A stretch of DNA of 38,552 nt from an uncultured Elusimicrobia bacterium. GTDB taxonomy: Bacteria > Elusimicrobiota > Elusimicrobia > UBA1565 > UBA9628. The stretch covers positions 1 to 38,552 of the forward strand of contig CAIQSZ010000370.1 in assembly GCA_903874575.1 (NCBI GenBank). The letters run 5' to 3'. The notes under the pieces were generated by a model. It was not told the origin of the DNA. It did not search any database and saw only the letters and a list, made by a program, of their open reading frames with translations. The position numbers and the translations under genes are program-made. Shown here one piece after another: positions 18,085 to 32,300 of this stretch (the first letter of the stretch is position 1; each line of letters starts with the position of its first letter).

Positions 18085-19026
18085 ATGGCTGAGCTCGCCT
18101 ATCTCCAGGTCGCGCGAGTTTGCAACCAGAAGTGTCTCTTCTGTTCGAATCCGGAGAACGGACGCGTCATCAGCTGGGAGGAGGCGGTGTCCTTCGTGGA
18201 CTCCTCCGCGGCCCAAGGGGCGGCCGGTCTTATCCTCACCGGTGGAGAACCGACGTTGTTCGAGCGCCTTCCCGAGTTGGTCGCCTATGCCCGCAAAAAG
18301 GGACTGCCCGCCAGGATGATCACCAACGGCCAGCGCGCCGCTCGGCCGGGCTTTCTGCGCGCACTCGCCGCCGCGGGTCTGGAGCATATGCACGTCTCCG
18401 TTCATTCCGTCAAACCCCGCGTCCAAGGGCGCCTGACCGGCAATCCGCGGTCTTTGGCCAATATTTTCAAGGCCATAGAATACGCCGGCCGCGAAGGCGT
18501 GAGGGTGGACGTCAACATGGTCATCAATGCGTTGAACGCCGATCACTTGAGCCTCAACGTCCAGGTTTTGGCGGAAAGATTCCCGTTTCTGCGTCATTTC
18601 GTTTGGAACAACCTGGACCCGATGATGAACCGCGCCTCGCTCAATCCGGACCTGGTTCCCAAACTACGCGCTTTCGAGGTGGAACTCCACAAGGCCATGG
18701 TTTGGCTGGACGCGACGGGGAGGACCTTCCGCGTCGAGAGGGTCCCCCTGTGCTTCATGTCCGACTTCCCTCACCGCTCGACCGAGACGCGCAAGATCGT
18801 CAAGGACGAGAACCGCGAGATATACTTCCTCGATGAGAAAGGCCTGCGCCGCCAAGGCCGGAGCGCCTGGACCTACGAAAAGCCGGCGCGGTGCGCCGAC
18901 TGCTCCCTGACGACGATCTGCGCGGGTCTTTACCAGATGGACGTCTATTATTCCTCGGAGGAACTCTGCCCGGTTTTCACGCCCGTCGAAAGCGTGCGGG
19001 CGGCCGTCAAGGCGGACGCTCCATGA
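18085..19026 (+). CDS. radical SAM enzyme, HxsC-like paralog 1
   Basis: CNQKCLFC (CX3CX2C), LTGGEPTL, ITNGQR and the C-terminal CADCSLTTIC (CxxCx5C) motif, which is shared with four other domains in the operon. Confidence 0.75.
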   Translation: MAELAYLQVARVCNQKCLFCSNPENGRVISWEEAVSFVDSSAAQGAAGLILTGGEPTLFERLPELVAYARKKGLPARMITNGQRAARPGFLRALAAAGLEHMHVSVHSVKPRVQGRLTGNPRSLANIFKAIEYAGREGVRVDVNMVINALNADHLSLNVQVLAERFPFLRHFVWNNLDPMMNRASLNPDLVPKLRAFEVELHKAMVWLDATGRTFRVERVPLCFMSDFPHRSTETRKIVKDENREIYFLDEKGLRRQGRSAWTYEKPARCADCSLTTICAGLYQMDVYYSSEELCPVFTPVESVRAAVKADAP

Positions 19027-20198
19027 GCGGAAACTTATTTCTCGGCGTGATTCTTCTTCTCGGAGGGGCGGCGACCATGTCGGATTGGCGGGAGAGCCGC
19101 GTGCCGAACCGGCTCGTCCTGCTGGGCCTGGCCGCCTTCGCCGGCGGACTGGTCTATCACCTGCTCTCCTCGGTCCTCGGGCATCGGGGATGGCGCCTGC
19201 TCGACATAGGTGAATATTATTTGCCCTGGCGTTTTTTCTCGATGCTGGGCGTTCACGCGATTTTGAGTCTCATCGCCGGTTGGACTCTGTGGCGTGTCGA
19301 CGTTTGGCCCGCCGGCGACGCCAAGCTTTATATTGTAATTTCTTGGCTCCTGCCTCTGGCCAACGCGAATTTGACGGGTTTCCCGAGACTCCTCTTCATC
19401 GTACTCCTCATCAATTGCTTCGTGCCGCCGGGTATACTCTTCGCCTGCGAGGGGGTCATCCGGCTCGCGGCCGCGGTCCCGGCGTTCTTTTCCGAAGGGA
19501 TATTCCGCGCGCTCAAGTCCGCCGTGAGCCGCGTCGTCCGGCGGATCAAGGACCTGCGGCCCATGCGACTGGAGGTGGCCGCCTTGCTGGTCAATTTGGC
19601 GTGCTTGTTCTTCGTCATGCGCTTGCTCGAGGCGCAGCTTCACCGCCAGCCGTTCGGGGCTTTAGGCCAGCTCGCGGTGTTTCTATCGATGCTCGTGGTC
19701 TGGCCTCGGCTTGTCGTCCTCCTCTATCGACCCCGATTAGGCGCCGCGGCGCTGTGTCTGTTTTTCGTCGGAGCAGTCTGCGCCGTCGTCGCGGGATTGG
19801 ACTTGGGGGCGGTTGTCTGGCGCGCGGCCAAGATGATGGTCAACTTCGGTTTCGCTCTTTCTTTGGCGCGCGTGGTCTTCAGCCGCGTCATCGAGCGCTC
19901 GAGTCTGCGGGACGTCGCCCCCGACGAATTGCGCCCGGGCGCCTTGCTGGCGGACACGGAGTGGGAAGCGCTTTCCAAGGACGAGGGCTCGCGCGGGATC
20001 GTGGAAGAGAGGAACTGCGACGGCCTGACGCGCGTCGAGGCCGAAGCTCTCCGCAGCAGCCTGTCGGGCCGCGGCGTCCGTTCCTTGTGCGTTTACCGGA
20101 CCGTTCCTTTCGCGGCCTGGATATTCCTGGGCACGGTATTGACCCTCGCGCATCAGGGGACCATCGTGTCTTGGGCTCGGAGTTGGATGGCTCGATGA
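19023..20198 (+). CDS. A24-family (prepilin peptidase-like) polytopic aspartyl protease with an inserted or extended C-terminal region
   Basis: The first Asp context MSDWRESRVPNRL resembles the D-x-R-x-x-IPN of CpaA/TadV. The second is WPAGDAKLY, a GxGDxKL-like motif. The C-terminal TVPFAAWIFLG resembles the PFGPFL end of prepilin peptidases. ATGA overlaps on both sides with radical SAM genes. Confidence 0.6.
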   Translation: MSGNLFLGVILLLGGAATMSDWRESRVPNRLVLLGLAAFAGGLVYHLLSSVLGHRGWRLLDIGEYYLPWRFFSMLGVHAILSLIAGWTLWRVDVWPAGDAKLYIVISWLLPLANANLTGFPRLLFIVLLINCFVPPGILFACEGVIRLAAAVPAFFSEGIFRALKSAVSRVVRRIKDLRPMRLEVAALLVNLACLFFVMRLLEAQLHRQPFGALGQLAVFLSMLVVWPRLVVLLYRPRLGAAALCLFFVGAVCAVVAGLDLGAVVWRAAKMMVNFGFALSLARVVFSRVIERSSLRDVAPDELRPGALLADTEWEALSKDEGSRGIVEERNCDGLTRVEAEALRSSLSGRGVRSLCVYRTVPFAAWIFLGTVLTLAHQGTIVSWARSWMAR

Positions 20199-21106
20199 GC
20201 GAACGCATCGACCTTAAAGTGGGTTTTCGCTGCAACAACTACTGCACGTTCTGCGTCCAGGGCGACAAACGTCAGCGTCTGCCCTCCAAGCCCGAGGGCG
20301 AACTTTTCAAAGCGCTCGAGGAGGGCCGGCTTGAAGGCGCCGACGGCGTCGTTCTCACCGGCGGCGAGCCGACGCTTCATCCTAAGATCGTCGCCATCGC
20401 GGCCAAAGCCAAGAGCCTCGGCTATCGGACGATCCAGGTCCAGACCAACGGGCGGACCTTCTGCTACGGCGACCTTATCAAGCGCCTGGCCGACGCGGGC
20501 GTCAACGAGTTCGGTCCATCCCTGCATGGTTCCACGGCGAGGATACACGATTGGCTCACCGGCGCGCCGGGGGCCTTCCTTCAGACCGTCTCGGGCATGC
20601 GCAACATAAAGAAACACGGAATGCGCCTCATCACCAACTCCGTCATTACGAGAGCCAATTATCGAGATCTCCCTAATTTGGCGAAGCTTCTCGTGTCGCT
20701 CGGCGTCGATCAGTTTCAATTCGCGTTCATGCACATGACCGGGCGCGCCGGAGAGAACAAGAATTGGCTGACGGCGCGCATGGCGATCGCCGAGCCTTGG
20801 GTGAAAAAGGCTCTTGACGTCGGCATCGCCGCCGGCCGGACCGTCATGACCGAGGCTATTCCTTACTGCCGCATGTCCGGGTATGAGGACTATGTCGCCG
20901 AGAGGATCATTCCCCGCACCCGAATCTACGACGCCGACTGCGTCATCGCCGACTACACCAAGACCCGTTTGGACGAAGGGAAGGCTCGCGGACCGCTTTG
21001 TCCGAAATGCGATTGGAACGACCGTTGCGAGGGTCCGTGGCGGGAATATCCGGAACTTTTCGGTTGGGATGAATTCGTTCCGGTTTTGCGAACTGGGGGG
21101 GCTTAG
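20195..21106 (+). CDS. radical SAM enzyme, HxsC-like paralog 2
   Basis: CNNYCTFC, LTGGEPTL, QTNGRTF and C-terminal CPKCDWNDRC (CxxCx5C). Confidence 0.75.
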   Translation: MSERIDLKVGFRCNNYCTFCVQGDKRQRLPSKPEGELFKALEEGRLEGADGVVLTGGEPTLHPKIVAIAAKAKSLGYRTIQVQTNGRTFCYGDLIKRLADAGVNEFGPSLHGSTARIHDWLTGAPGAFLQTVSGMRNIKKHGMRLITNSVITRANYRDLPNLAKLLVSLGVDQFQFAFMHMTGRAGENKNWLTARMAIAEPWVKKALDVGIAAGRTVMTEAIPYCRMSGYEDYVAERIIPRTRIYDADCVIADYTKTRLDEGKARGPLCPKCDWNDRCEGPWREYPELFGWDEFVPVLRTGGA

Positions 21107-21116
21107 GCCAACGACT

Positions 21117-22289
21117 ATGAGCAGGTTAATAAAGCGGTTCCGTCGCGTTTTTTTCGCCGTCCTTGCCGTCTTGACGGTCGGGGTGTGCCATGCCGCTCCG
21201 CCTTCCCAGCCGCAACAAGCCAAGCTCGGCCAGAAGGATGCAGGTAAAAATACCGGCAAAAGCGAGGAAAGAGACAGGAGCAAAGACAAGGAGCAGCAAG
21301 CGAACCTGAGAAAATTTTCCGCTTGGGACGAACTGTGCCGGGCGGGGACGTTCGATATTCGCGCCGTCAAGGGCCGCGATTCGGGCTCTCCGCCTGAATT
21401 GGGCGTGGCGTATGCGTGCCTTGCGCTGGCGTCTTCCGCGGCGGCTCCGGCCAAGGCGTCGGGCAATCCGGGATTGGACGAGGACGTCCGCAGCCTGACC
21501 GGGAGCGTCTTAGCCATTCACGGCGTCCTGTCGGGAGGTGGTTACACGGAGAAAGCATGCCGGTTGATGGCCGGGACGCCTGAGGGCCAGGCGCCCTCCT
21601 CCGCGAGCAAGCAGCAGTGCCAGCTTTTTTTCTCGGCCCTCCGGGAGAACAAGGGCGGCGGCTTATTGTGCGATCAGGCCAAGGCGAAAGGTCTTGCGGG
21701 CGCAGGCTTTGATTGTTCTCTGGCCGCCAACGTCGTGGATGGGAATTCCAAACGATGCGGCGGTCCCGATGCTTTGCGCTGCCAGGAACTGGCGGGTCTC
21801 GTCGCGGCGTTGCGTTCCAAGGATCCGGGAGGGTGCTCGTCCTCCGTGTTCTGCAAGGTCTTGAAGAGTCGCGACGCCAGGGATTGCGAGCCGTATTTGA
21901 AAAAAGCGGACGTCGGGTTCTGCGCTCGGAACGCCGAGGAATTAGGTAAGCTGAAGCAAGCGGCCCGCGGCGATGCGGATCGTGAGAAAAAAGACAAGGA
22001 CGAGCTCGCCGCAAAAATCCGCGACCAGCAGGCGCAGATTCAAGCCGAAGCCAAGAAAGCCCAGGAGGACCTCGCTGCAAAAACAAGAGATCAGAAACTG
22101 ATGCCCGCGGATGCCGCAGCCAAATTAGCCCGCAGCGAGCAGCAGGCGGAGGCGATGGCCAAAAAAGCGGCCGCCAAAAAAGCGGCGGATGAAAAATTTC
22201 ATAAAGATAAATTTAATAAAATGCAGCCCATGCAGGCCGTCTCGACGGATATCCAGAAGCGAATGAAAGAGATCGAAGGGAAGAAGTGA
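21117..22289 (+). CDS. secreted Cys-rich protein with C-terminal Lys/Ala/Glu-rich coiled-coil tail
   Basis: Signal peptide MSRLIKRFRRVFFAVLAVLTVGVCHA. Repeated short D/K-x(2-4)-C spacing, seen in KDPGGC, RDARDC, ADVGFC and PDALRC. The last ~110 aa are low-complexity K/A/E/Q. Confidence 0.6.
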   Translation: MSRLIKRFRRVFFAVLAVLTVGVCHAAPPSQPQQAKLGQKDAGKNTGKSEERDRSKDKEQQANLRKFSAWDELCRAGTFDIRAVKGRDSGSPPELGVAYACLALASSAAAPAKASGNPGLDEDVRSLTGSVLAIHGVLSGGGYTEKACRLMAGTPEGQAPSSASKQQCQLFFSALRENKGGGLLCDQAKAKGLAGAGFDCSLAANVVDGNSKRCGGPDALRCQELAGLVAALRSKDPGGCSSSVFCKVLKSRDARDCEPYLKKADVGFCARNAEELGKLKQAARGDADREKKDKDELAAKIRDQQAQIQAEAKKAQEDLAAKTRDQKLMPADAAAKLARSEQQAEAMAKKAAAKKAADEKFHKDKFNKMQPMQAVSTDIQKRMKEIEGKK

Positions 22290-22302
22290 ACGCAGTTCCG
22301 AT

Positions 22303-22929
22303 ATGTCGGCGCGCAGGGAGAATATCAGGGTGAAAAAGCAATCGAAGGAATCTAAGATCGTGGTGGACCTTTCGGTGTATCCATTGGAGGCGGTCCAGGC
22401 CGTGGCTTACTCGCTGATGGAGCGCCTTTCCGTTCGCATAGAACGCGGCGGGAATAAAGCGGTTTCCGTCATCCTGAAGCCGAAGTCGGGCGGGAATCCC
22501 GAGGCGCTGGCCGACGAATTCCAAGGCGAGCTTCTGCATGAGACCCTCCGTCTCCAGGTGTCGCTGGCGAATCAAAAGATCCGAGAGTACATCGTGACGA
22601 AGGCCTTGGTTTCGGCCCAGGTTCCCAGTGTGGTTCCGGAAGCGGTCTCTGATTCGGCCTCGTCGGCGGCGGCTGAGTCCTGTCCCGAGTGCCAGGCCCA
22701 ACAGGCCCAAGCCGCGCCGCCTCCGGTCGACGCGGAATTGGAGAAAGAGATCGAGAAACTTCTCGTTGAAATCGAGAAGGGCGACGGCGGAGACGATCCT
22801 CTGGGAGTGGCGGTGCCGTGGGAAGAGAAGTACGGCAAGGCGTCCGAAGCCGCGCCGCCGCCTTCGGATAAAGAGCCCTCGAAAATGAAATCAAAAACGG
22901 CAAAGCCGGCGAAGCCGGGGGCTGCATGA
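22303..22929 (+). CDS. hxsD: HxsD-like protein (His-Xaa-Ser system accessory protein) with ~100-aa low-complexity C-terminal extension
   Basis: FQGELLHETLRLQVSLANQKIREYIVTKAL resembles the LLNDYxLRE signature I recall for HxsD. The gene sits directly upstream of hxsB with an ATGA overlap. The tail contains CPEC and Pro/Ala/Lys-rich sequence. Confidence 0.55.
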   Translation: MSARRENIRVKKQSKESKIVVDLSVYPLEAVQAVAYSLMERLSVRIERGGNKAVSVILKPKSGGNPEALADEFQGELLHETLRLQVSLANQKIREYIVTKALVSAQVPSVVPEAVSDSASSAAAESCPECQAQQAQAAPPPVDAELEKEIEKLLVEIEKGDGGDDPLGVAVPWEEKYGKASEAAPPPSDKEPSKMKSKTAKPAKPGAA

Positions 22930-24395
22930 GCGGGGAAGCCCCCATCGTGGAGTTCCCACGCCTCAATCCGGAAAAGACGGGTTTTTTTCGGTTTCGACGG
23001 CTCAAGGATGATTATCTCATCACCAATGATTTCGGCCGGCACTGCCTCTTAACGGCGGCGGAGTTCAAGAGCTTCGTCGAGGGCTCGATGGACGCATCCT
23101 CGCCGTTGTACGCGCGGCTGGCGCAGGACGGATTCATCCGCGACAGCATGGATTTCGAGGCGTTGACGTCCGTTTGGCGGACTCGCAACCGCTTCCTATG
23201 GCAGGCCCCCAATCTTCATATCATCGTCGTCACTTTGCGCTGCAACCACCGTTGCCTCTACTGTCAGGCCAACTCGGTCTCGATGAAGGATGAGTCGTCG
23301 GATATGAGTTTGGAGACGGCGCGCAAGGTCGTGGACCGGATATTCGAGAGCGTAAGCCCCGCCATCACCATCGAGTTCCAGGGCGGGGAACCCTTGGCCA
23401 ACTGGCCGGTCGTTCAGTTCATCGTCGAGTACGCCCGCACGAAGAACCGCGAGGCCGGCAAGAGCCTGTGGATCAACTTAGTCACCAACCTGAGTCTCAT
23501 GGACGACGAGAAGTTGAAATTCCTCCTCAAGAACGAGGTCAACTTTTGCACTTCGCTCGATGGGCCCGCGGACCTGCACGACAAGAACCGCGTTTTCTCC
23601 GGCGGCAACAGCCATGCCGGCGCCGTGCGGTGGTTCAAGAAGATTCAGAAGAAGACGGTGGGCAAAGCCTTCCGCATCGATGCCTTGCTGACGGTGACGC
23701 GGTTCTCGCTGTCGCGCCACAAGGACATCATCGATGAGTATATCGGTCTCGGCATGCGCGGGATATACCTGCGGCCTTTAAGCCGGCTCGGCCTGGCGCG
23801 CGGGACCTGGGACCGGATCGGCTACGAGCCGGACGAGTTCCTCGAATTCTATCGGAAGTCGCTCGATTACATCCTTGAAATCAACAAACGCAAGAATTTT
23901 TTCGAGCAGACCTCCCGCTTGTTCCTGGCTAAGATTTTGGGAGACAACGATCCCAACTTTTTGGACCTCCGTTCGCCCTGCGGCGCGGGGATCGGCCAGA
24001 TCGCCTACAACTTCAACGGCGATCTTTATACCTGCGACGAAGGACGGATGTTCTCGCGCATGGGAGACGAATCCTTCCGCATCGGGGGCGTCAACGAGGG
24101 ATCTTACCAGGAAAGCGTGAGCCACCCGACCGTGCGCGCCATCACGGTGGCTTCCACCCTGGATAACCAACCGCAGTGCTCGAAATGCGCTTATAAGCCC
24201 TACTGCGGCGTGTGCCCGGTGCAGTGCTACGGTGAACAAGGCGATATCATGGGCCGCATGCCGTCCAACACGCGTTGCCGCTTGAACATGGGCGTCCAGG
24301 ACGCTTTATTCGAGCGGCTTCGGGATCCTAAGACGGAAAAGACTTTCAGGAAATGGATTCGTGAAAGAAAAGAACCGGCCGTCTCTCCGCGCTAG
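22926..24395 (+). CDS. hxsB: radical SAM/SPASM maturase, HxsB-like
   Basis: CNHRCLYC lies ~110 aa from the N-terminus. FQGGEPL is present. C-terminal SPASM-type Cys cluster CGAG...YTCDEG...CSKCAYKPYCGVCP. Directly upstream of the His-Xaa-Ser repeat gene. Confidence 0.75.
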   Translation: MSGEAPIVEFPRLNPEKTGFFRFRRLKDDYLITNDFGRHCLLTAAEFKSFVEGSMDASSPLYARLAQDGFIRDSMDFEALTSVWRTRNRFLWQAPNLHIIVVTLRCNHRCLYCQANSVSMKDESSDMSLETARKVVDRIFESVSPAITIEFQGGEPLANWPVVQFIVEYARTKNREAGKSLWINLVTNLSLMDDEKLKFLLKNEVNFCTSLDGPADLHDKNRVFSGGNSHAGAVRWFKKIQKKTVGKAFRIDALLTVTRFSLSRHKDIIDEYIGLGMRGIYLRPLSRLGLARGTWDRIGYEPDEFLEFYRKSLDYILEINKRKNFFEQTSRLFLAKILGDNDPNFLDLRSPCGAGIGQIAYNFNGDLYTCDEGRMFSRMGDESFRIGGVNEGSYQESVSHPTVRAITVASTLDNQPQCSKCAYKPYCGVCPVQCYGEQGDIMGRMPSNTRCRLNMGVQDALFERLRDPKTEKTFRKWIRERKEPAVSPR

Positions 24396-24404
24396 AGGTA
24401 TTCC

Positions 24405-24872
24405 ATGGGCAAAGAAATCATTCCTAAAATCAAAAAAGACCTCACTCGGTTCTTGACGAGTGAAGAAGGTAAGATGCTCAAGAAGGACATCCTTAAGGCC
24501 GCAGCCATCCTGGGCATCGTCGGAGCGACCATGATGAAGGCGGAGGACGTCCTCGCTCAGACCCACACCAACGCCCTCCATAATTCGGGCGGACAGGCGT
24601 CGAGCCATGTGAGCCATAGTTCGCATGCCAGCCATGCTTCTCACGGCTCTCACGGCAGCCACGGTTCGCACGGCAGCCACGGTTCGCACGGCTCCCATGG
24701 CTCGCACGGAAGCCACGGCAGCCACGGGTCCCACGGCTCGCACGGATCCCATTCATCCCACGGCAGCCACGGCAGTCATGGGAGCCATGGCAGCCACGGC
24801 AGTCATGGCAGCCACGGCAGCCACGGCAGCCACGGCAGTCATGGGAGCCATGGCAGCCACGGGAGTTGGTAG
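24405..24872 (+). CDS. hxsA: His-Xaa-Ser repeat precursor protein (29 H-x-S triplets, 24 of them HGS)
   Basis: GAGG RBS 7 nt upstream of the ATG. A 67-aa N-terminal region contains the Sec-like hydrophobic segment KKDILKAAAILGIVGATMMKAEDVLAQ. Then HVS-HSS-HAS-HAS-(HGS)12-HSS-(HGS)12-W-stop. Confidence 0.85.
   Translation: MGKEIIPKIKKDLTRFLTSEEGKMLKKDILKAAAILGIVGATMMKAEDVLAQTHTNALHNSGGQASSHVSHSSHASHASHGSHGSHGSHGSHGSHGSHGSHGSHGSHGSHGSHGSHSSHGSHGSHGSHGSHGSHGSHGSHGSHGSHGSHGSHGSW
24606..24866 (+). repeat. coding tandem repeat, 9-nt period x 29 (CAY-GGN-TCN/AGY)
   Basis: Read directly from the sequence. The first 12 HGS units mix TCT/TCG/TCC/AGC Ser codons, while the last 12 use only AGC/AGT. The last 12 also contain an exact 36-nt duplication, units 1-4 equal to units 8-11 of that block. 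Confidence 0.95.
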
Positions 24873-26652
24873 CGGAGCAACGTCCGGAAGCAACTGGTCG
24901 AAGGCGCTGCTCAAGGTCGGCTACGCCTGCAATAATCGCTGTGTCTTCTGCCATTCGGAGTCGTTCCGGGTCATCCATCCCGAACTGACGACGCGGGACC
25001 TCCAGGCTCGGATACTGGAGGTCAAGGCGCGCGGCGTCGAGATGGTGGTTTTTTCCGGCGGCGAGCCGACGCTGCGTTCCGACATCTCTGAGTTGGCCCG
25101 TTTCGCGCATCAACAGGGGCTGAAAACCGGCTTTATCACGAACGGGCGTCGGTTCGCGTACCCCTCGTTCGTTCGGGATATGCGCGCCTGCGGGCTCCGC
25201 TTCGTTTATACGTCCTTCCATTCGCCCCTTCGTCGCGCTCATGAGTCGTCGAGCGGCGCCGACAGCCTCACGCAAGTCCTGGCCGCGTTGCGCCACTTGT
25301 CGCGTTCGGAAGTCGAACTGACCGTCAACACGGTCGTCACGCGCCATAACATCGGGAGCCTGTCGGAGGTCGTCGACCTTTTAGCCGCGTTCGCCCCCGC
25401 GAGGATTAAGTTCTCGGTCGTCGAGCCGAAGGGCGCGGCTCTCGAGAATCCGACGCTCTGTCCCCCGCTGAAGGAGAGCGCGGCGGCGATTTCGGACGCG
25501 ATCCGATATGGGGAATCAAGGCATCCGAACGTTCGCTTCGCTTGCGAAGGGCTGACGCCGTGCCTTATCGACGATTTCGACCGACTCAACGACGACCTGG
25601 TTTCGAACGGATTCGTGCTTTTTCAGGAGACGTTCGAGTCTCGTCCCGTCCGCCCCGATTACGGCAATCGCGCGAAAGCGGCGGCGTGTTGGGATTGCGC
25701 GCGGCACGATTCGTGCCCCGGCGTGTTTCAGGGCTATCTTTCCTCCGATCACGATCTCCCGATTCAGCCGCGGCCGAGCCGCATTTCCAATTCCTTCGTT
25801 TTCCTGCGCGGGGATCTCGCCGCCCCTCCGCGCGTCCCGGCGGAGTGCTCCTTGGAACGGGGCGACGTCCGCGGCATTTTCGTCGCCGAAGGGAATCGAC
25901 TGCGCTCGTATCGGACGCCCACGTCCGATTTTTCCGACGCCGAGATCGCGGAGACATTGCGTCTCGGCCAAGTGTATAAGACCCGCGGCGCGAAGCATAA
26001 GGGACTCGAGTATGGGCGCGACCTGGTCAAATACCGCGTCTCGCGGCTGTGCCGCTCGTGCGACCGTCGCGTCGGGTGCTCCCGCATCTACGAGAGGAGT
26101 CCGGGCAACGCCTTCGCTCCGTTGGAATCGGCGTTGGAGGACGTCGTGCGCGGCCTGCGCGGCGATATCCTGGAGGTCGGCTGCGGCAATATCCGGTTCC
26201 GAAGCGTACTCGAGGCCCTCGTTCGGGCGGGGCGCATGAGGTACGTCGGCATCGATCCGCATCTACCGCGGATGGCGGTTCCGCGCGGCATGTCGGTGCG
26301 CCGCGTCGATATCGAGGATTTCGACGCGGCCGCCGCCGCGTTCGATCATATCCTGATTTCGCGCAGCTACAACCATATCCGGCTTCCCTCCGTGGCTTTC
26401 CCGAAAATCCGACGATTATTGAGGGCGAAAGGCCGCTTGACCGTCGTCGACGGAGTTTCCTGCGGGATACTCCTGCCGCGTCGGCCTCCCGAGGCGTCCG
26501 CGTCGGAGTTCCAACACTATCGGAACCATTCGTCGGGGCAGGCTAAGGAGATGATCGCGTCGTTCGGCTTTTCCGCGGTCCGCGAGATCCCGGTCGATCC
26601 CGGCGGCGGCAGCGAGTGGCTGCTTTCCTTCCGCAAGAAGAGCCTCGAATGA
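24841..26652 (+). CDS. hxsC: radical SAM enzyme (HxsC-like, paralog 3) fused to a C-terminal class I SAM-dependent methyltransferase-like domain
   Basis: CNNRCVFC, FSGGEPTL, ITNGRRF and CWDCARHDSC (CxxCx5C). The C-terminal ~200 aa carry DILEVGCGNIRF, a motif I GxGxG-like sequence. No start codon exists after the hxsA stop. The candidate ATGs at 24841 and 24850 lie inside the hxsA repeat in the +1 frame, so the start is uncertain. Confidence 0.7.
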   Translation: MGAMAATGVGSGATSGSNWSKALLKVGYACNNRCVFCHSESFRVIHPELTTRDLQARILEVKARGVEMVVFSGGEPTLRSDISELARFAHQQGLKTGFITNGRRFAYPSFVRDMRACGLRFVYTSFHSPLRRAHESSSGADSLTQVLAALRHLSRSEVELTVNTVVTRHNIGSLSEVVDLLAAFAPARIKFSVVEPKGAALENPTLCPPLKESAAAISDAIRYGESRHPNVRFACEGLTPCLIDDFDRLNDDLVSNGFVLFQETFESRPVRPDYGNRAKAAACWDCARHDSCPGVFQGYLSSDHDLPIQPRPSRISNSFVFLRGDLAAPPRVPAECSLERGDVRGIFVAEGNRLRSYRTPTSDFSDAEIAETLRLGQVYKTRGAKHKGLEYGRDLVKYRVSRLCRSCDRRVGCSRIYERSPGNAFAPLESALEDVVRGLRGDILEVGCGNIRFRSVLEALVRAGRMRYVGIDPHLPRMAVPRGMSVRRVDIEDFDAAAAAFDHILISRSYNHIRLPSVAFPKIRRLLRAKGRLTVVDGVSCGILLPRRPPEASASEFQHYRNHSSGQAKEMIASFGFSAVREIPVDPGGGSEWLLSFRKKSLE

Positions 26653-28916
26653 CGAAAAGACGGCGCGTGCTGCTGGTGAATCCTCCGGCGCTCCTGGACC
26701 GGGATTTCATCGATTATCCTCAATTCGTCGGGTTGGGGGTCGCGTCGAACGCCGCGGCTCTGCGCGCGCGGGGGCTTGCCGTGACGGTGGCGGACGCCCA
26801 GATGTCGGCGCAGGCCGAGGTCGCGGCAAGGGACGACGGCCGAGTGCGGCTTGGCTGCGATCTGGAACGGCTTCTGAAGACCGTCCCCGGCGATTTCGAC
26901 GACGTCGTCGTCGGAGTGTCCCCCTACGCGAAGCCGCACGCGCGCACCGAATTCACCGCGCGGCAGTTCGCCGCGGCGCGCGCGCGCTTCCCTTCCGCGA
27001 GGCTGGTGGCGGCGGATTTCTATTTCGGCGGCATCCACTATATCGAGTACGACGGCGAACGGTTTTTGCGCGATTATCCCCAAGTGGACGCCGTGGTGAA
27101 ATATGAGGGCGAATCGGCGCTTGCCGCTCTTCTGAAGTCCTCCGGCCCGCTGCCGCGCGTGACGCGCGCGGTCGCGGAGGACATCCCGGTGGACTCCCTG
27201 CCTTATCCCGCTTGGGACCCGAAGTTCGTCGAAGGGCACGGAGACTTGTCGGCGAAGTTTTATGCCGCGAGCGGCCGTCCGGCGCCCTATCCGCCCGGCG
27301 TCGTGACCTTGCCCGCGGTGACTTCCCGGAGCTGCGCTTACCGCTGTTCCTTCTGCACCTCGAATCCGGGCCAGAGCCGAGCGTCGTTCCGGCCGCATGG
27401 GGCGGCTTACCTGCGGCGATATTTTTCCGAACTAAAAAATAAATTCTCCGTCCGACGCCTGGTCCTTCTTGACGGATGCGCCAATTACGATCCGGCGCGT
27501 TTCGACGAGATATTATCGATTATCGGAGAACTCGGCTTGCGCTGCGATTTCCCGAACGGGCTTCGAGCGGACAAATTGACTTTTGCGGCGCTCCGGGCGC
27601 TGAGCGCCGTCTCGGACGGCGTTTCCATCAGCGCGGAATCAGGCGATCCCGAGGTCCTTTCGCATATTTTTAAGAAAGGGATGGATCTTTCGGCCGTCGA
27701 GAGAGTCGCGTCCTGGTGCCGCGAGCTCCGGCTGCCTATAGGCATTCATTATATCGTCGGCGCTCCCGGGGAGACGCCGGAGAGCGTCAATCGGACCCTG
27801 CGCCACGCGTTGAGGATGACGGACGATTTCGGGGCCCGGCCGCTGCTGCAGAATTTCGTGCCTATTCCCGGCACGGCGCTTTATGGGGAGTGCGAGCGGC
27901 GGGGGCTTCTGAAGAGGTTCGACGCGGAGAATCTCCATCGATATTTTCAGGGAGAGCCGGCCCTGTCCACGCCCTCGCTGAGCCGGGCGAAGCTGTCGCG
28001 CATGGTCCGTCTGTTCCGGAGCAGGCTGGAGGCTTCGTCGCTGCAGAAAGTCATCGTCAACCTCACCTATCACTGCAACAACAACTGCCGGTTCTGCGCC
28101 GTCGGGGACCGGGGCAAGCGGCATGGGGACTTCGAGCGCTATGGGCGGCTTCTGGCCGACTATAGAAAGCGCGGAGTCACGGCTCTGGATTTGGACGGAG
28201 GCGAGCCGACGCTGTATCCGGAATTTTTTCCGCTCGTCCGCCTGGCGCGGCGATGCGGCTATGAGAAGATCACGGTCACGACCAACGGCCGGCGGCTCGC
28301 CGATCGCGCCTTCGCGGCTCGTTTTCTTCTCAGCGGCATCTCCGACCTGCTGATCTCCCTGCACGGGCATACGCCGGAGATCCACGAATATCAAACGAGA
28401 CGAAAGGGGAGCTTCGCCGAGGCCGTCCAGGGCCTCCGCCATGCGTTGAGGCTCAAGCCCGGCCGCATGACGGTGGGGGTCAATACCATGCTCCTCGCGG
28501 AGAACGCCCGGCATCTTCCGAGCTTCCTCGATTTCATGGATGAATTGGGGGTGGAGAAGGTGAACGTCCAACTGCTGACCCCCTTCGGCAACGCGGCGGC
28601 CGCGCCCGGTCGGGGCGATTTCGACGTCTACGGACATGCGGCTCGCGCGCTGCGGCGTCGGAAGAAGACGCCGGCCGTTCAACTCGTCAACGTCGTTCCC
28701 TGCCTGCTCGCGGGGCACGCGCGAGGCGTGCCGGCCGAACTCGGCAAGCATGGGCGGGAGATGGTGTTCGTGGACGCGGCTCCTCGCAATCTCGCCGCAT
28801 ACCTTGACGCTCGGAGGCATAAGACTGATCAATGTCGAGGCTGTGAATTTGATATCGGATGCGGCGGCTTCCATGTCTTCAACGCTGAAGAAGATCGAAC
28901 TGATCCTCTGGTTTAA
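26649..28916 (+). CDS. double radical SAM fusion: N-terminal class-B-like (B12-binding-like domain + rSAM) and C-terminal HxsC-like rSAM (paralog 4)
   Basis: The N-terminus RRVLLVNPPALLDRDFIDYPQFVGLGVASNAAALRARGLAVTVAD is B12-binding-domain-like. The first cluster motif is CAYRCSFC. The second half has CNNNCRFC, LDGGEPTL, TTNGRRL and CRGCEFDIGC (CxxCx5C). ATGA overlap with the upstream stop. Confidence 0.7.
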   Translation: MTKRRRVLLVNPPALLDRDFIDYPQFVGLGVASNAAALRARGLAVTVADAQMSAQAEVAARDDGRVRLGCDLERLLKTVPGDFDDVVVGVSPYAKPHARTEFTARQFAAARARFPSARLVAADFYFGGIHYIEYDGERFLRDYPQVDAVVKYEGESALAALLKSSGPLPRVTRAVAEDIPVDSLPYPAWDPKFVEGHGDLSAKFYAASGRPAPYPPGVVTLPAVTSRSCAYRCSFCTSNPGQSRASFRPHGAAYLRRYFSELKNKFSVRRLVLLDGCANYDPARFDEILSIIGELGLRCDFPNGLRADKLTFAALRALSAVSDGVSISAESGDPEVLSHIFKKGMDLSAVERVASWCRELRLPIGIHYIVGAPGETPESVNRTLRHALRMTDDFGARPLLQNFVPIPGTALYGECERRGLLKRFDAENLHRYFQGEPALSTPSLSRAKLSRMVRLFRSRLEASSLQKVIVNLTYHCNNNCRFCAVGDRGKRHGDFERYGRLLADYRKRGVTALDLDGGEPTLYPEFFPLVRLARRCGYEKITVTTNGRRLADRAFAARFLLSGISDLLISLHGHTPEIHEYQTRRKGSFAEAVQGLRHALRLKPGRMTVGVNTMLLAENARHLPSFLDFMDELGVEKVNVQLLTPFGNAAAAPGRGDFDVYGHAARALRRRKKTPAVQLVNVVPCLLAGHARGVPAELGKHGREMVFVDAAPRNLAAYLDARRHKTDQCRGCEFDIGCGGFHVFNAEEDRTDPLV

Positions 28917-29760
28917 ATGCAACTGCCGCTGCGCTTTCTGCGTCGTCGACGCGGAGACGGCGCGTCAGTCCATGACGACGGCCGAAGCCGTGCGTCACAT
29001 GGGGCGAGCCCGGAAGGAGGGCGCGAGCGCGGTGGATTTCGGCGGCGGGGAGCCGACGCTGCGCGACGACTTGGCCGCGCTCGTCCGGGCCGCCGCCGCG
29101 TTCGGGTATTCGGACATCGGCGTCAAGTCGAACGGATTGATGTTCTGCTATCCGGAATACGTCGAGACGTTGCGCCGCGCGGGGGCGGACCGTTTTTCCG
29201 TCTCCGTTTGGGGCGATTGCCCGTCCGTCCATGACGCGCTCTGCCGGACGCCGGGGGCCTTCGAGAAGATGGAGATGGGGATAAAAAACGTCGTCGATTC
29301 GGGGGGCGATCCTGAGGCCGAGGTTCTGCTGACCGTCGGGTCCGTCCCGCGGTTGGGGCGCATCGTGGGGGCGTTCGCGGACATCGGGGTGAAGCGGTTC
29401 CGGTTCTGGCTCTATTCGCTCTTCGGGGCGGATTCCCGTTTTCCGGAGCTTCTGCCGACGTTGACGGACGCGGGAGCGGCGATCTCGCGGACGTCCTCCT
29501 CCTTCGCATCCCGAGGACTGATTTTTTCGACGAGCCACGTCCCGCCCTGTTTTCTGCGCGCGCGGGGCGTCTACGCTCCCATTGCCGACGAAGGACTGCG
29601 CATCATCACGCCGGGCGGAGCGTTCGCCGCCGAGCGTTCGCCGTTCGAGGCCGGCGTCAAGACGCGGCGGTGCGCGGGATGCTCCCACGCCGACCGTTGC
29701 GGAGGGGTTCGTCACGAATATCTCCAGCGTTTCTCCGATGCCGAAATCACGCCGATCTGA
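28873..29760 (+). CDS. radical SAM enzyme, HxsC-like paralog 5
   Basis: CNCRCAFC, FGGGEPTL, KSNGLMF and CAGCSHADRC (CxxCx5C). The ATG at 28873 overlaps the previous gene by 44 nt. Confidence 0.7.
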   Translation: MSSTLKKIELILWFKCNCRCAFCVVDAETARQSMTTAEAVRHMGRARKEGASAVDFGGGEPTLRDDLAALVRAAAAFGYSDIGVKSNGLMFCYPEYVETLRRAGADRFSVSVWGDCPSVHDALCRTPGAFEKMEMGIKNVVDSGGDPEAEVLLTVGSVPRLGRIVGAFADIGVKRFRFWLYSLFGADSRFPELLPTLTDAGAAISRTSSSFASRGLIFSTSHVPPCFLRARGVYAPIADEGLRIITPGGAFAAERSPFEAGVKTRRCAGCSHADRCGGVRHEYLQRFSDAEITPI

Positions 29761-31156
29761 GGGGTTGCCGCCGGCGCAGGCGCGCGACTTTCAACGCTAT
29801 CTCGAAATGGCCCGCGGGCTTCCTTGGGAGGCCGAGCAGCTGCCGGCCTGCGAACTGCACGGCGCGCCGCTCTCCGGAGAGGCTGTCGGCGCGCTTTGGG
29901 CTCAGGCCGTCCGGGCGGGCTCTTTCGGGGGGGGCCTCGGCCTCTATTGCCACATTCCGTTCTGCGCGAGCCGTTGCGGCTATTGCCATTGCTTTTCCGA
30001 CGCCTTGAAGCGCCCGGATGAGTTAAGCGACCACCTCCGCCTGCTCTTGACGGAGATCTCTCTCTGGGGGCCGACGTTCGCCCGGAGCCGCTTCACCAAC
30101 GCCTACATCGGCGGCGGGACGCCCACGCTCCTGCCTCCGAAAGGCCTGGCGCTTCTATTGGGCGCGATACGAAGCGCCTTCCGTTTCACGGATGACGCTC
30201 AGATTACCGTCGAGTCCACGCCGAGGACCGCCGACGCGAACCGTTTGGCCGTCCTGCGCGCCCATGACGTCCGTCGCCTGAGTCTCGGCGTTCAATCCTT
30301 GGATCGCGCGGTGCTGGCCCGCGCGGATCGACAATGGCAGACCTTCGAGATGGTGGAACGCGCCTGCCTCAACGCCCGCCGGGCGGGGTTCCCCATCGTG
30401 AACGCCGACCTCATCGCGGGCCTTCACGGTCAATCCGTCGCCTCGCTCATCGCGGACGCGCAAGCGGTGGCTCGGCTGGGATTCGATACGATACACGTCT
30501 ACTACTTCGAACCGAACAAAGGCGCCTACGACGGCCGCGGTCGCCTCGGCGCCGCCTGGCGACGGCGCCGTCAGGCCATGCTGGCGGCGGTCGGTCCCGC
30601 CCTGGCTCCTTACGGCTACCGGGCCATCTTCGGCGAGACGATCTACGCGTTGCGCGAGGGGGCGGAGAACCGCTACGATTTCGAACGGTACTTCCGAGCG
30701 GGTTCGATCCTCGGTCTGGGATGGCAGGCTGAATCCCATGCTTTCCCGGGAACCAACTACAGACATCTTTCGAGGCAATCGTGGCAGGAAAGCCTTCGGG
30801 CCGGTCGCATGCCGCCCGTGCGGTCGTACCGGGGCGGACCGGACTGGGAAATGCGGGAGTTTCTCGTCTTCCGTCTGCGCCAAGGGGTCGATTATGGCGT
30901 TTTCCGGAGACTTTTCGGCTGTCGGCCTCAGGACGCGTTTCCGGCCGCCTTCCGCGCCCTCCGGCGGGCCGGCCGCCTTCGCGAGCGGACCGGCTTCGTT
31001 CAGGCGGTGTTCGGCTCACAGTTGGAGTATCTGGCCGTCACTTTGCATTTTTTCCCCGAAGAATCTCTTTTGAGGGCATTGTCGATGCGCCCATCGGTCC
31101 AGACGGATGGAGGGCGAGAGTCGCCCGTGCGTCGCGGCTCGCGCCCGGAGGCGTAG
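29738..31156 (+). CDS. HemN-like (class C) radical SAM enzyme
   Basis: YCHIPFCASRCGYCHC (CX3CX2C followed by an extra Cys), YIGGGTPTLL, SLGVQS and a HemN_C-like tail. The start is uncertain: ATG at 29738 or 29810. Confidence 0.75.
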   Translation: MPKSRRSEGLPPAQARDFQRYLEMARGLPWEAEQLPACELHGAPLSGEAVGALWAQAVRAGSFGGGLGLYCHIPFCASRCGYCHCFSDALKRPDELSDHLRLLLTEISLWGPTFARSRFTNAYIGGGTPTLLPPKGLALLLGAIRSAFRFTDDAQITVESTPRTADANRLAVLRAHDVRRLSLGVQSLDRAVLARADRQWQTFEMVERACLNARRAGFPIVNADLIAGLHGQSVASLIADAQAVARLGFDTIHVYYFEPNKGAYDGRGRLGAAWRRRRQAMLAAVGPALAPYGYRAIFGETIYALREGAENRYDFERYFRAGSILGLGWQAESHAFPGTNYRHLSRQSWQESLRAGRMPPVRSYRGGPDWEMREFLVFRLRQGVDYGVFRRLFGCRPQDAFPAAFRALRRAGRLRERTGFVQAVFGSQLEYLAVTLHFFPEESLLRALSMRPSVQTDGGRESPVRRGSRPEA

Positions 31157-31157
31157 C

Positions 31158-32300
31158 GTGACCTCCGTCAAAGGAAGCCCGGAAATATATCTCGACAATG
31201 CCGCCACCACGCCGCTGCGCCCGGCCGCGTTGCGCGCGATGATGGATTGCTCCCGGCGTTTCTACGGCAATCCCTCCTCGTGGCATCGCAAGGGCGTCGA
31301 GGCGTCTCGGGCCGTGGAGAAAAGCCGCCGAATCCTCGCGCTGGCTCTGGGTTGCGAGCCGGACGAGATCGTCTTCACTTCCGGGGGTACGGAAGCCAAT
31401 AATCTCGCCGTCAAAGGGGTGGCGCGGGCTTTAGGGAGGCGCCGGGCCCACGCCGTCGTCTCGGCCGTCGAGCATCCCAGCGTGGCGGCCGCCGTCCAGT
31501 CGCTGAAGGCGCGGGGCTGGTCGATCACCGTCGTGAAGACGGACGAAGATGGGATGGTCGCGCCCCGCCGCGTCGCCGAGGCGCTGACCTCCTCCACCGC
31601 TTTGGTCAGCGTCATGCACGCCAACCATGAGATCGGGACGATCGAGCCCATCGCCGAGATCGGCCGCCTCTGTCGACGGGCCGGAGTCCTCTTTCACAGC
31701 GACGCCTGCCAAAGCTTCATGAAGGAGCCGCTGGATTTGAGACGGGTTGCGGTGGATTTGGTCAGCGTCAACGCCCACAAACTCCATGGACCAAAGGGCG
31801 TCGGCGCCTTGGTCGCGCGCCGAGGATCGTCTCTGGCGCCGCTCCTGGACGGGGGCGGACAGGAAGGCGGACGTCGTTCCGGGACCCACAATACCCCCGC
31901 CATCGCGGGGTTCGCCGCCGCCGTGGAGGACTCCGACCCCGGGGCGCCCGAGAAGATGCGGCGTCTGCGTGACAGGCTCTTTGCGGCGCTCGTTCGGACG
32001 ATACCGGGGCTGAGCCTTAATGGGCCGCGTCATGGCCGCCTCTGCAGCCATCTGAATCTGCTGCTGCCGGGGCTCCAGGCCAAGCCCTTCCTCCAAAAAC
32101 TCAGCGCCGCGGGGATATACGCTTCCGCCGGAGCGGCCTGTTCCTCAGCCAAGACCACTCCTAGTCCCGTGCTGCTCGCCATTGGAAGGACTCCCGAGCA
32201 GGCGTCGTGCAGCGTGCGCTTGAGTTTGAGCCGCTCGACCACTCCGTCCCAGATCGACGCGGCGGCTCGGACGATGGCGTCGCTCGCCCGCGGCCTATGA
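31158..32300 (+). CDS. cysteine desulfurase (NifS/IscS-like, class V aminotransferase)
   Basis: IYLDNAATTP, TSGGTEANN, PLP-lysine context SVNAHKLHGPKGVGAL, RSGTHN and active-site loop SAGAACSS. A GTG start at 31158 lies 1 nt after the upstream stop. The ATG at 31107 would overlap by 50 nt. Confidence 0.8.
   Translation: MTSVKGSPEIYLDNAATTPLRPAALRAMMDCSRRFYGNPSSWHRKGVEASRAVEKSRRILALALGCEPDEIVFTSGGTEANNLAVKGVARALGRRRAHAVVSAVEHPSVAAAVQSLKARGWSITVVKTDEDGMVAPRRVAEALTSSTALVSVMHANHEIGTIEPIAEIGRLCRRAGVLFHSDACQSFMKEPLDLRRVAVDLVSVNAHKLHGPKGVGALVARRGSSLAPLLDGGGQEGGRRSGTHNTPAIAGFAAAVEDSDPGAPEKMRRLRDRLFAALVRTIPGLSLNGPRHGRLCSHLNLLLPGLQAKPFLQKLSAAGIYASAGAACSSAKTTPSPVLLAIGRTPEQASCSVRLSLSRSTTPSQIDAAARTMASLARGL

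What the first reader, a model, noticed from the sequence alone, without database searches (positions are those of the whole stretch)
24606..26652. HxsC-like rSAM fused to a methyltransferase-like domain, with its start codon created inside the precursor's repeat
The rSAM domain (CNNRCVFC) continues without a stop into a ~200-aa region carrying DILEVGCGNIRF...YVGIDP...HILISRSYNH...LRAKGRLTVVD, which resembles class I SAM-methyltransferase motifs I to post-II. No ATG/GTG/TTG exists between the hxsA stop (24870-72) and the conserved rSAM N-terminus. The only in-frame starts, ATG at 24841 and 24850, arise in the +1 frame from the last two CAT-GGN (His-Gly) codons of hxsA. The +1 frame is in fact open across the entire repeat from 24625, encoding a Thr/Ala-rich sequence. 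Precursor and maturase translation are therefore physically interlocked. Choosing CAT rather than CAC for His at specific repeats has a second function as a start codon.
Basis: partly seen in the sequence, partly recalled or inferred. Interest (0 to 1): 0.65.

Follow-up and report, generated by a model that had tools for sequence, protein, structure and literature searches.

The report
Radical-SAM/methyltransferase fusion beside HxsA precursor
The gene after the His-Ser-Gly repeat precursor really encodes one conserved enzyme joining a radical-SAM domain to a methyltransferase domain, but its start codon inside the precursor's repeat is a quirk of this genome, because relatives use an ordinary start between the two genes.

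Summary
ORF 24625-26652 carries a radical-SAM (rSAM) core (CNNRCVFC) and a C-terminal class I methyltransferase (MT) in one frame. No ATG, GTG or TTG lies between the hxsA stop and the conserved N-terminus. The nearest in-frame ATGs (24841, 24850) come from CAT-GGN codons of hxsA.

The fusion is genuine. More than 100 clusters at 50% identity have the same full-length architecture. AlphaFold2 gives pLDDT 91, with rSAM and Rossmann-MT fold matches.

It is not HxsC or HxsC4: it scores 66 bits against a cut-off of 268, and 95 against 500. In Myxococcota a true HxsC4 (627 bits) sits beside HxsA4 and the fusion is a separate gene. It is therefore an accessory maturase of HxsA4-type systems.

- All seven orthologous hxsA-fusion junctions (five with DNA) have a normal intergenic start. 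In the five, it is an ATG or TTG six codons before KVGY.
- The window has TGG there, one base from TTG, and an identical second assembly shows the same base.
- CAT is not enriched in the repeat.
- Two orthologs that keep their own start also carry +1-frame ATGs from CAT-GGN in their repeats.

Translation here probably starts at ATG 24850, which is preceded by GGGAG. I read this as a lineage-specific consequence of losing the ancestral start.

The parts
24405..24872 (+). hxsA4: the His-Xaa-Ser repeat precursor. It has a conserved 65-aa N-terminal region, then about 29 Ser-His-Gly/Ala/Ser units, ending in Gly-Ser-Trp.
   Evidence: NF038313 HxsA4 scores 131.7 bits against a cut-off of 55. The leader is 77-92% identical in L001, L002, L163 and L165.
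24600..24866 (+). The (Ser-His-Xaa)n repeat DNA. It is open in all frames on both strands and contains eight ATGs in the frame of the downstream gene.
   Evidence: The antisense ORFs 24306-24752 and 24493-25347 are by-products of the repeat.
24843..24847 (+). GGGAG, a Shine-Dalgarno-like element formed by Gly-Ser codons GGG-AGC, 2 nt before ATG 24850.
   Evidence: Duplex energy with a generic anti-SD is -6.5 kcal/mol, comparable with hxsA (-7.1) and hxsB (-8.6). The spacing is short. The same motif precedes ATG 24787.
24841..24843 (+). In-frame ATG from CAT-GGG. This is the start chosen by the gene caller, giving 603 aa.
   Evidence: There is no SD-like element upstream (dG -2.3).
24850..24852 (+). 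In-frame ATG from CAT-GGC. This is the most likely real start in this genome, giving 600 aa and a 23-nt overlap with hxsA.
   Evidence: The first 12 residues of this version are disordered in the model (pLDDT below 50).
24895..24897 (+). TGG (Trp) at the codon where every ortholog with DNA has its ATG or TTG start, six codons before the K of KVGY. It is preceded by GGAAG at 4-nt spacing.
   Evidence: The same base is present in a 100% identical second assembly, L166.
24916..25380 (+). Radical-SAM core domain. The CxxxCxxC motif (CNNRCVFC) is at 24928-24951.
   Evidence: PF04055 scores 82.7 bits against GA 29.5. Foldseek matches BlsE, SkfB, viperin, PqqE and MoaA.
25561..25716 (+). Four invariant cysteines (C241, C283, C286, C292 in the 603-aa numbering; Cx41CxxCx5C-P-G). 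This is a candidate auxiliary Fe-S cluster site.
   Evidence: Invariant in A1 and A2. There is no SPASM Pfam match.
25720..26100 (+). Family-specific beta-rich middle domain with no database match. It includes a partly conserved CxxCx5C.
   Evidence: High pLDDT within the whole-protein model. No Pfam hit. No similarity to HxsD.
26101..26649 (+). Class I SAM-dependent methyltransferase domain (ILEVGCG, YVGIDP, FDHILISRSYNH, GRLTVVD).
   Evidence: Methyltransf_11 scores 35 bits against GA 21.2 when this region (26101-26649) is scanned alone, and 32.3 bits in the whole protein. Foldseek matches 3hnr, 3l8d, 3g5l and 3i9f with TMt 0.6-0.67.
26649..26652 (+). ATGA overlap: the stop of the fusion and the start of the next gene, a B12-binding rSAM plus second rSAM domain of 755 aa.
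   Evidence: Ortholog gene tables show the same 4-nt overlap.

Best explanation
The region encodes a single conserved enzyme of about 580-600 aa. It has three parts: an N-terminal radical-SAM domain with the canonical CxxxCxxC cluster and a four-Cys auxiliary site, a family-specific beta-rich middle domain, and a C-terminal class I SAM methyltransferase.

It belongs to a large unnamed family. That family recurs next to HxsD, HxsB and HxsA4 in Elusimicrobiota and, in a different gene order, in Myxococcota. It is a paralogue of HxsC/HxsC4, not HxsC itself. Inferred function: it acts on the (Ser-His-Gly)n region of HxsA4. The rSAM half would do hydrogen-abstraction or cross-link chemistry, and the MT half would add a methyl group to the same substrate. 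It would work alongside HxsB and several further rSAM enzymes in the operon.

On the start codon: the family's normal start (ATG or TTG, giving M-[RK]-K-A-L-[LI]-K-V-G-Y) reads TGG in this genome. Translation therefore most probably begins at ATG 24850, which has GGGAG 2 nt upstream, or at ATG 24841, both inside the last hxsA repeats. Ribosomes finishing hxsA 20 nt downstream probably help. The result is a disordered N-terminal extension of 15-18 aa, which the family tolerates. I read this overlap as a lineage-specific accident of start-codon loss plus the chance abundance of CAT-GGN in the repeat, not as a designed dual-coding device.

Shown: the domain composition, the conservation of the fusion, the non-membership of HxsC/HxsC4, the ortholog starts and the codon statistics. 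Inferred: the substrate, the chemistry and the actual initiation site.
For: - Domains: PF04055 82.7 bits and Methyltransf_11 32.3 bits, both above GA. The AF2 model has pLDDT 91.1 and pTM 0.88. Foldseek matches rSAM enzymes and class I MTs. MT motifs align with PDB 3hnr.
- Conserved fusion: about 40 full-length homologues, 72 loci, and more than 100 of the top 150 clusters at 50% identity spanning profile positions 3-587.
- Hxs context: hxsD-hxsB-hxsA-fusion-B12rSAM order in L001, L002, L163 and L165, in the P0007 and P0014 loci, and (partial contig) L168. Hxs markers lie within the flanks in 20 of 35 Myxococcota-type loci that have complete flanks.
- Not HxsC4: the window fusion scores 95 bits and the L005 fusion 91 bits, against 627 bits for the true HxsC4 in L005.
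- Start: orthologs have ATG or TTG six codons before the K of KVGY, and the window has TGG there. The second assembly is identical. GGGAG precedes ATG 24850. K21, A22 and L23 are nearly invariant, so the start must lie upstream of 24901. N-terminal extensions exist in P0009, P0016 and P0041. Residues 1-12 are disordered. There is no promoter or terminator between the two genes.
Against: - No expression or proteomic data exist, so the initiation site is inferred.
- The GGGAG-to-ATG spacing (1-2 nt) is shorter than optimal, and the same GGGAG-ATG unit occurs at 24787, so initiation could be heterogeneous.
- L166 may derive from the same sample or population, so it is weak independent support for TGG.
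- In about 40% of Myxococcota-type loci with full flanks, no Hxs gene lies within 6 kb, so dedication to HxsA4 is not proven.
- No biochemical evidence links either domain to HxsA4.
Confidence: 0.7

Rival explanations
1. The overlap is a selected dual-coding design: specific His codons are kept as CAT so that the precursor's repeat supplies the maturase start codon, which physically interlocks the translation of precursor and enzyme.
For: In this genome the only canonical in-frame starts are CAT-GGN-derived ATGs. ATG 24850 is preceded by GGGAG, built from the rarer GGG Gly codon. The fusion is in the +1 frame relative to hxsA in five of eight junctions (and the gene tables).
Against: All seven orthologous hxsA-fusion junctions have a separate intergenic start 13-105 nt after the hxsA stop. 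It is an ATG or TTG in the five with DNA. CAT is less frequent in hxsA (39%; 25% of His-Gly pairs) than in neighbouring genes (51%). The two terminal ATGs are a copy of an internal repeat unit. L001 and L163 carry the same +1 ATGs without needing them. In Myxococcota hxsA is not upstream of the fusion at all. Frame offsets vary (+1, +2, 0).
Confidence: 0.07
2. The TGG is a recent inactivating mutation or a consensus error. Either the fusion gene is poorly expressed or non-functional in this population, or the true sequence has a normal TTG start and there is no overlap.
For: TGG differs from the TTG start of L002, L163 and L168 by one base. GGAAG lies 4 nt upstream of TGG, as expected for a former ribosome-binding site.
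Against: The rest of the 600-aa frame is intact, with every invariant residue of the family present. A second assembly of 12 kb is 100% identical, including the TGG. Upstream ATGs with an SD-like element are available in frame.
Confidence: 0.15
3. Translation starts at a non-canonical codon in the intergenic stretch or at CTG 24907, so there is no functional overlap with hxsA.
For: An in-frame CTG lies at 24907, and ACG codons lie at 24859 and 24880.
Against: Starting at CTG would delete the nearly invariant Lys-Ala that precede it, and the SD-like match is only 1 nt away. ACG initiation is very rare in bacteria (general knowledge). Canonical ATGs lie close upstream.
Confidence: 0.06
4. A +1 ribosomal frameshift within the repeat produces a covalent HxsA-leader/maturase fusion protein.
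For: The +1 frame is open from 24625 through the whole repeat into the enzyme. The repeat is monotonous and might be slippery.
Against: Openness is a trivial property of (GGC AGC CAC)n. L002 and L165 have in-frame stops between the repeat and the enzyme. L168 and the P0007 and P0014 loci use other frame offsets. No slippery heptamer or stimulatory structure was identified.
Confidence: 0.02

Closest known systems
HxsC / HxsC4 (TIGR03977, NF038332), the second radical-SAM maturase of His-Xaa-Ser systems
   Same: It is a radical-SAM enzyme without a SPASM Pfam match, encoded next to hxsA, hxsB and hxsD. HxsC4 is its best NCBIfam hit.
   Different: Its scores are far below the curated cut-offs (95 against 500, and 66 against 268). 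It is about twice as long, with an extra middle domain and a class I MT domain. In Myxococcota it coexists with a genuine HxsC4.
The HXS antiphage system of E. coli (Li et al., Nat Commun 2026, PMC13128918)
   Same: It shares HxsB (531 bits), an HxsD-like protein and a His-Xaa-Ser repeat protein in one operon. In the published system, rSAM-dependent maturation of HxsA gives a +8 Da (+C/-4H-type) modification and N-terminal processing.
   Different: The published system has four genes in the order D-B-C-A. [quoted passage not shown] Here the order is D-B-A-fusion, with about 29 Ser-His-Gly units and no peptidoglycan-binding domain hit. There are at least six further rSAM domains, and the phylum is Elusimicrobiota-like. 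No defence function has been tested.
Stand-alone class I SAM methyltransferases of the Methyltransf_11 type (for example PDB 3hnr, 3l8d)
   Same: The fold and the SAM-binding motifs match.
   Different: Here the domain is fused behind an rSAM enzyme. It also carries family-specific invariant motifs (RSYNH, EHxRNH) of unknown role.
Overlapping, translationally coupled genes in bacterial operons (for example ATGA overlaps)
   Same: The downstream start lies inside the upstream coding sequence, close to its stop, with no terminator between them. The fusion's own 3' end has a classic ATGA overlap with the next gene.
   Different: The overlap is 23-32 nt, lies inside a repeat array, is not conserved in orthologs and is apparently secondary to loss of the normal start.

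Membership tests
HxsC (TIGR03977) | Whole-protein score at or above the curated cut-off (267.9 bits) | tested here: not met
   66.3 bits
HxsC4 (NF038332) | Whole-protein score at or above the curated cut-off (500 bits) | tested here: not met
   95.3 bits. A positive control, L005:11169-12236, scores 627 bits, while the L005 fusion scores 91 bits.
HxsC / HxsC4 | Encoded in one cluster with HxsA, HxsB and HxsD | tested here: met
   hxsD 22303-22929, hxsB 22926-24395 (531 bits) and hxsA4 24405-24872 lie immediately upstream. The same holds in orthologs.
HxsC | [quoted passage not shown] | not testable with these tools
   This needs pull-down experiments or genetics. hhalign shows no HxsD-like segment inside the fusion.
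Radical SAM superfamily | CxxxCxxC motif, PF04055 above the gathering score, and a partial TIM-barrel fold | tested here: met
   CNNRCVFC at 24928-24951. PF04055 scores 82.7 against 29.5. Foldseek matches BlsE, SkfB, viperin and MoaA, E 1e-8 to 1e-10.
SPASM/twitch auxiliary-cluster rSAM enzymes | C-terminal Cys-rich extension that binds one or two extra [4Fe-4S] clusters (SPASM Pfam PF13186 or the CxxCx5Cx3C motif) | tested here: inconclusive
   There is no PF13186 hit. Four invariant Cys (Cx41CxxCx5C) follow the core, but the fourth Cys of the CxxCx5Cx3C motif is absent.
Class I SAM-dependent methyltransferase | Rossmann-like seven-strand fold, motif I (E/D-x-G-x-G), and an acidic residue after beta-2 | tested here: met
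   Methyltransf_11 scores 32-35 bits against GA 21.2. ILEVGCG and YVGIDP align with 3hnr. Foldseek TMt is 0.6-0.67 to 3hnr, 3l8d and 3i9f.
Class I SAM-dependent methyltransferase | Catalyses methyl transfer from SAM | not testable with these tools
   This needs an enzyme assay.
HxsA4 (NF038313), for the upstream precursor | Score at or above the cut-off of 55 bits | tested here: met
   131.7 bits
Canonical HXS antiphage system (PMC13128918) | Four-gene D-B-C-A cassette, with an HxsA that has a peptidoglycan-binding domain and about five repeats | tested here: not met
   The order here is D-B-A-fusion, with about 29 repeats. The only Pfam hit above the gathering score on hxsA is Collagen.
Conserved overlapping-gene (dual-coding) arrangement | The start of the downstream gene lies inside the upstream gene in orthologs too | tested here: not met
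   All seven orthologous junctions have intergenic starts 13-105 nt after the hxsA stop.

The most novel reading that the evidence does not exclude
The rSAM-methyltransferase fusion could be the signature enzyme of an expanded, multi-rSAM HXS-type system. In that reading it installs a so-far undescribed radical-plus-methyl (one-carbon) modification on a collagen-like (Gly-Ser-His)n effector. In this lineage its synthesis would have become obligatorily coupled to translation of the precursor's last repeats, which would tie enzyme dosage to precursor output.
Probability: 0.15. Interest if true: 0.6.

Novelty: new variant of a known kind. Interest (0 to 1): 0.35.

Why it matters
HXS systems have just been shown to block phage DNA entry through an rSAM-matured HxS-repeat effector. 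The chemistry of that effector's +8 Da modification is still unsolved (PMC13128918).

The window shows a much larger relative of that system. It has an HxsA4 precursor with about 29 Ser-His-Gly units, HxsB, HxsD and at least seven rSAM-domain genes. One of these is a conserved rSAM/class I MT fusion that no curated family model covers. That fusion family is widespread (more than 100 clusters at 50% identity) and occurs in cultured Myxococcota such as Enhygromyxa salina, Nannocystis exedens and Chondromyces apiculatus. It is therefore experimentally accessible and could help define what rSAM enzymes do to His-Xaa-Ser repeats.

The start-codon overlap matters mainly as an annotation caution. Repeat-encoding genes generate open frames and ATGs in every phase. 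In a second assembly of this same locus, the gene caller missed hxsA entirely, called an antisense ORF instead and extended the enzyme to 624 aa.

Tried and rejected
- Programmed +1 frameshift fusing HxsA to the enzyme. Rejected because orthologs have in-frame stops or other frame offsets.
- An HxsD-like or RRE-like segment inside the fusion. hhalign of the fusion alignment against an HxsD alignment found nothing (probability 0.4%).
- Identity of the middle domain. Pfam at E up to 5 gave no meaningful hit. An AF2 model of the isolated middle domain with seven sequences failed (pLDDT 39), so I ran no fold search on it.
- PADLOC-DB. It returned only generic viperin-type rSAM hits and no HXS model.
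- An internal promoter or an attenuating terminator between hxsA and the fusion. None was found.
- CAT enrichment as a sign of selection. Not present.
- A literature search for characterised rSAM plus class I MT fusions in RiPP pathways. I found none in the papers I opened. This is not exhaustive.
- Closer relatives of this genome, to date the TTG-to-TGG change. The only near-identical sequence is a 100% identical second assembly. The next homologue is about 57-60% identical.
Full report
**1. The observation**

hxsA runs from 24405 to 24872 and ends ...His-Gly-Ser-Trp-TAG. In the +1 frame an ORF is open from ATG 24625 to TGA 26652. It contains the radical-SAM (rSAM) motif CNNRCVFC at 24928-24951. 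Without any stop it also contains DILEVGCGNIRF, YVGIDP, HILISRSYNH and GRLTVVD.

- No in-frame ATG, GTG or TTG lies between the hxsA stop and the conserved KALLKVGY. The only near-canonical codon is CTG 24907.
- The nearest ATGs, 24841 and 24850, come from CAT-GGG and CAT-GGC of hxsA.
- They are the last two of eight in-frame ATGs in the repeat.
- They lie in an internally duplicated unit (24768-24800 is repeated at 24828-24860).

**2. What the proteins are**

NCBIfam gives these assignments:

| Gene | Family | Score (bits) | Cut-off (bits) |
|---|---|---|---|
| Precursor 24405-24872 | HxsA4 (NF038313) | 131.7 | 55 |
| Gene 22926-24395 | HxsB (TIGR03978) | 531 | 370 |
| Gene 22303-22929 | HxsD | 44.5 | 50 (borderline) |
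| Target protein | HxsC4 | 95.3 | 500 |
| Target protein | HxsC | 66.3 | 267.9 |

The target's scores against HxsC4 and HxsC are barely above its scores for AhbD or MoaA. Pfam gives Radical_SAM at residues 26-180 (82.7 bits) and Methyltransf_11 at 444-534 (32.3 bits, above the gathering score of 21.2).

An AlphaFold2 model built on 39 homologues is confident (pLDDT 91.1, pTM 0.88). Only residues 1-12 are disordered; these are the extension encoded by the overlap and the spacer. Foldseek against the PDB matches the N-terminal half to BlsE, SkfB, viperin, PqqE and MoaA. It matches the C-terminal part to class I methyltransferases (MTs) 3hnr, 3l8d, 3g5l and 3i9f, with TMt 0.6-0.67. A direct alignment to 3hnr lines up motif I, the acidic residue after beta-2, and motifs III and IV.

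Between the two domains lie four invariant cysteines (Cx41CxxCx5C, a probable auxiliary cluster) and a beta-rich region with no Pfam match.

**3. The fusion is real and conserved**

- The protein search returned about 40 full-length homologues with both domains, at 48-60% identity in Elusimicrobiota MAGs and 30-36% in a second group.
- Scans of genome and metagenome collections gave 72 loci with a full-length match, mostly Myxococcota. They include cultured Enhygromyxa salina DSM 15201, Nannocystis exedens DSM 71, N. punicea and Chondromyces apiculatus DSM 436.
- A profile search of 1.84 billion representatives found that more than 100 of the best 150 clusters at 50% identity span the whole profile in proteins of 560-650 aa.

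A sequencing frameshift is therefore excluded. The rSAM module also occurs alone (P0046), in front of a second rSAM domain (P0042) and behind a B12-rSAM (P0031).

**4. It is not HxsC**

In Myxococcota locus L005 the gene directly after HxsA4 scores 627 bits for HxsC4, above the cut-off. The fusion, 3 kb upstream in the same locus, scores 91 bits. The fusion is therefore a separate accessory paralogue.

In the window no protein reaches the HxsC4 cut-off. The best is the upstream rSAM at 20216-21106, with 153.6 bits.

Linkage to Hxs genes is strong but not absolute.

- Seven of the nine Elusimicrobiota-type loci have hxsD-hxsB-hxsA directly upstream, or at least the hxsA 3' end where the contig is short (L168).
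- L164 and L167 do not have hxsA directly upstream.
- Among Myxococcota-type loci with complete 5.9-kb flanks, 20 of 35 hold HxsB, HxsD or an (SHx)n ORF. Typically hxsA lies 2.5-3.5 kb downstream of the fusion.

**5. The start codon**

All seven orthologous hxsA-fusion junctions have an ordinary intergenic start 13-105 nt after the hxsA stop. In the five with DNA, that start is an ATG or TTG exactly six codons before the K of KVGY, giving M-[RK]-K-A-L-[LI]-K-V-G-Y.

- The window reads TGG at that codon (24895-97), one substitution from the TTG used by L002, L163 and L168. It still has GGAAG 4 nt upstream.
- A second public assembly (L166) is 100% identical over 12,008 nt, including this base. 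It may represent the same population.
- K21, A22 and L23 are nearly invariant, so the start must lie upstream of 24901.
- ATG 24850 is preceded by GGGAG (-6.5 kcal/mol, comparable with hxsA and hxsB) at short spacing. ATG 24841 has no such element.
- Family members tolerate N-terminal extensions. P0009 has ACC at the canonical codon and starts 17 codons upstream. P0016 and P0041 also have extensions.
- No promoter-like or terminator-like site separates the two genes.

I conclude that translation most likely starts at 24850 or 24841. Ribosomes terminating at TAG 24870-72 probably help. That last step rests on general knowledge of translational coupling and was not tested here.

**6. Is the overlap designed?**

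The evidence says no.

- CAT is 39% of His codons in hxsA and 25% of His-Gly pairs, against 51% in neighbouring genes.
- The two terminal ATGs copy an internal unit of the repeat.
- L001 and L163 have the same CAT-GGN-derived ATGs in an open +1 frame, yet keep their own start.
- Frame offsets vary among orthologs (+1, +2, 0).
- The Myxococcota branch has no hxsA upstream of the fusion at all.
- The open +1 frame is a trivial property of (GGC AGC CAC)n, which is also open on the opposite strand.

**7. Mechanism (inferred)**

The canonical HXS system is an antiphage system. In it HxsB, HxsC and HxsD mature HxsA by N-terminal processing and a +8 Da modification of +C/-4H type on an SHRSS motif. 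HxsC binds HxsD (PMC13128918).

The window is an expanded variant of this system. It has the following components:

- HxsD, HxsB and a long HxsA4;
- the rSAM-MT fusion;
- a 755-aa protein with a B12-binding rSAM domain plus a second rSAM domain;
- two more HxsC-like rSAMs and a HemN-like rSAM;
- an upstream rSAM and a weak Peptidase_A24-like membrane protein.

The most economical reading is that the fusion works on the HxsA4 repeats. Its rSAM half would perform radical chemistry, and its MT half would methylate the same substrate or an intermediate. Neither the substrate nor the chemistry is shown.

**8. Verdict**

The fusion is a genuine, conserved, uncharacterised accessory enzyme of HxsA4-type systems, which makes this a new variant of a known kind. 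The start codon inside the repeat is real in this genome. It is best explained as a lineage-specific consequence of losing the ancestral start, not as a dual-function codon choice.

Noticed in passing
window 26649-28916 (+): One 755-aa protein combines a B12-binding-type rSAM half (HpnJ/Sden_1168-like, residues about 6-460) with a second, HxsC4-like rSAM domain (residues about 464-650). The architecture is conserved downstream of the fusion in all Elusimicrobiota-type loci.
   Followed up: partly
window 18085-31156 (+): The cluster holds at least seven rSAM-domain genes: 18085-19026, 20216-21106, hxsB, the fusion, 26649-28916 (two domains), 28873-29760, and the HemN-like 29738-31156. That is far more than the two of the published four-gene HXS system. 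Gene content is conserved in L001, although the order is partly shuffled.
   Followed up: partly
window 18891-20198 (+): A 435-aa membrane protein has a weak Peptidase_A24 (prepilin peptidase) match of 24.6 bits, just under GA 26.5. It has a 66%-identical ortholog in L001. It could be the leader peptidase for HxsA4.
   Followed up: no
window 24600-24866 (+), hxsA4 repeat: The repeat is formally Gly-X-Y (Gly-Ser-His) and passes the Pfam Collagen gathering score (42.7 against 27.2). Every ortholog ends in Gly-Ser-Trp. Repeat number varies widely between orthologs, whose precursors range from 107 to 169 aa.
   Followed up: no
window 24306-24752 (-) and 24493-25347 (-); L166 3662-4108 (-): Long antisense ORFs run across the repeat. 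In the second assembly (L166) the gene caller annotated the 148-aa antisense ORF, missed hxsA altogether and extended the enzyme to 624 aa. This looks like a recurrent annotation artefact at repeat-encoding genes.
   Followed up: yes
window 21117-22289 (+): A 390-aa Lys/Ala/Glu-rich protein has an N-terminal hydrophobic segment and no Pfam match. It is encoded just upstream of hxsD. Weak orthologs sit at the same position in L001 and L002 (29-42% identity).
   Followed up: no
window 31107-35404 (+): Directly downstream of the rSAM genes lie a class V aminotransferase/cysteine desulfurase, a TusA-like 79-aa protein, a QueC/ThiI-like PP-loop protein and a carbamoyltransferase. This could be a sulfur-relay or tailoring module. 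It is absent from the L001 locus, so it may be unrelated.
   Followed up: no
L023 8900-9400 (+): One Myxococcota locus carries two tandem (SHG)n precursor ORFs downstream of the fusion.
   Followed up: no
L168 175-250 (+): In this ortholog a GTG overlaps the hxsA stop (TGGTGA) in frame with the enzyme, and the gene caller chose it, giving 606 aa. The canonical TTG lies 72 nt further on. Start annotation at this junction is inconsistent across databases.
   Followed up: partly
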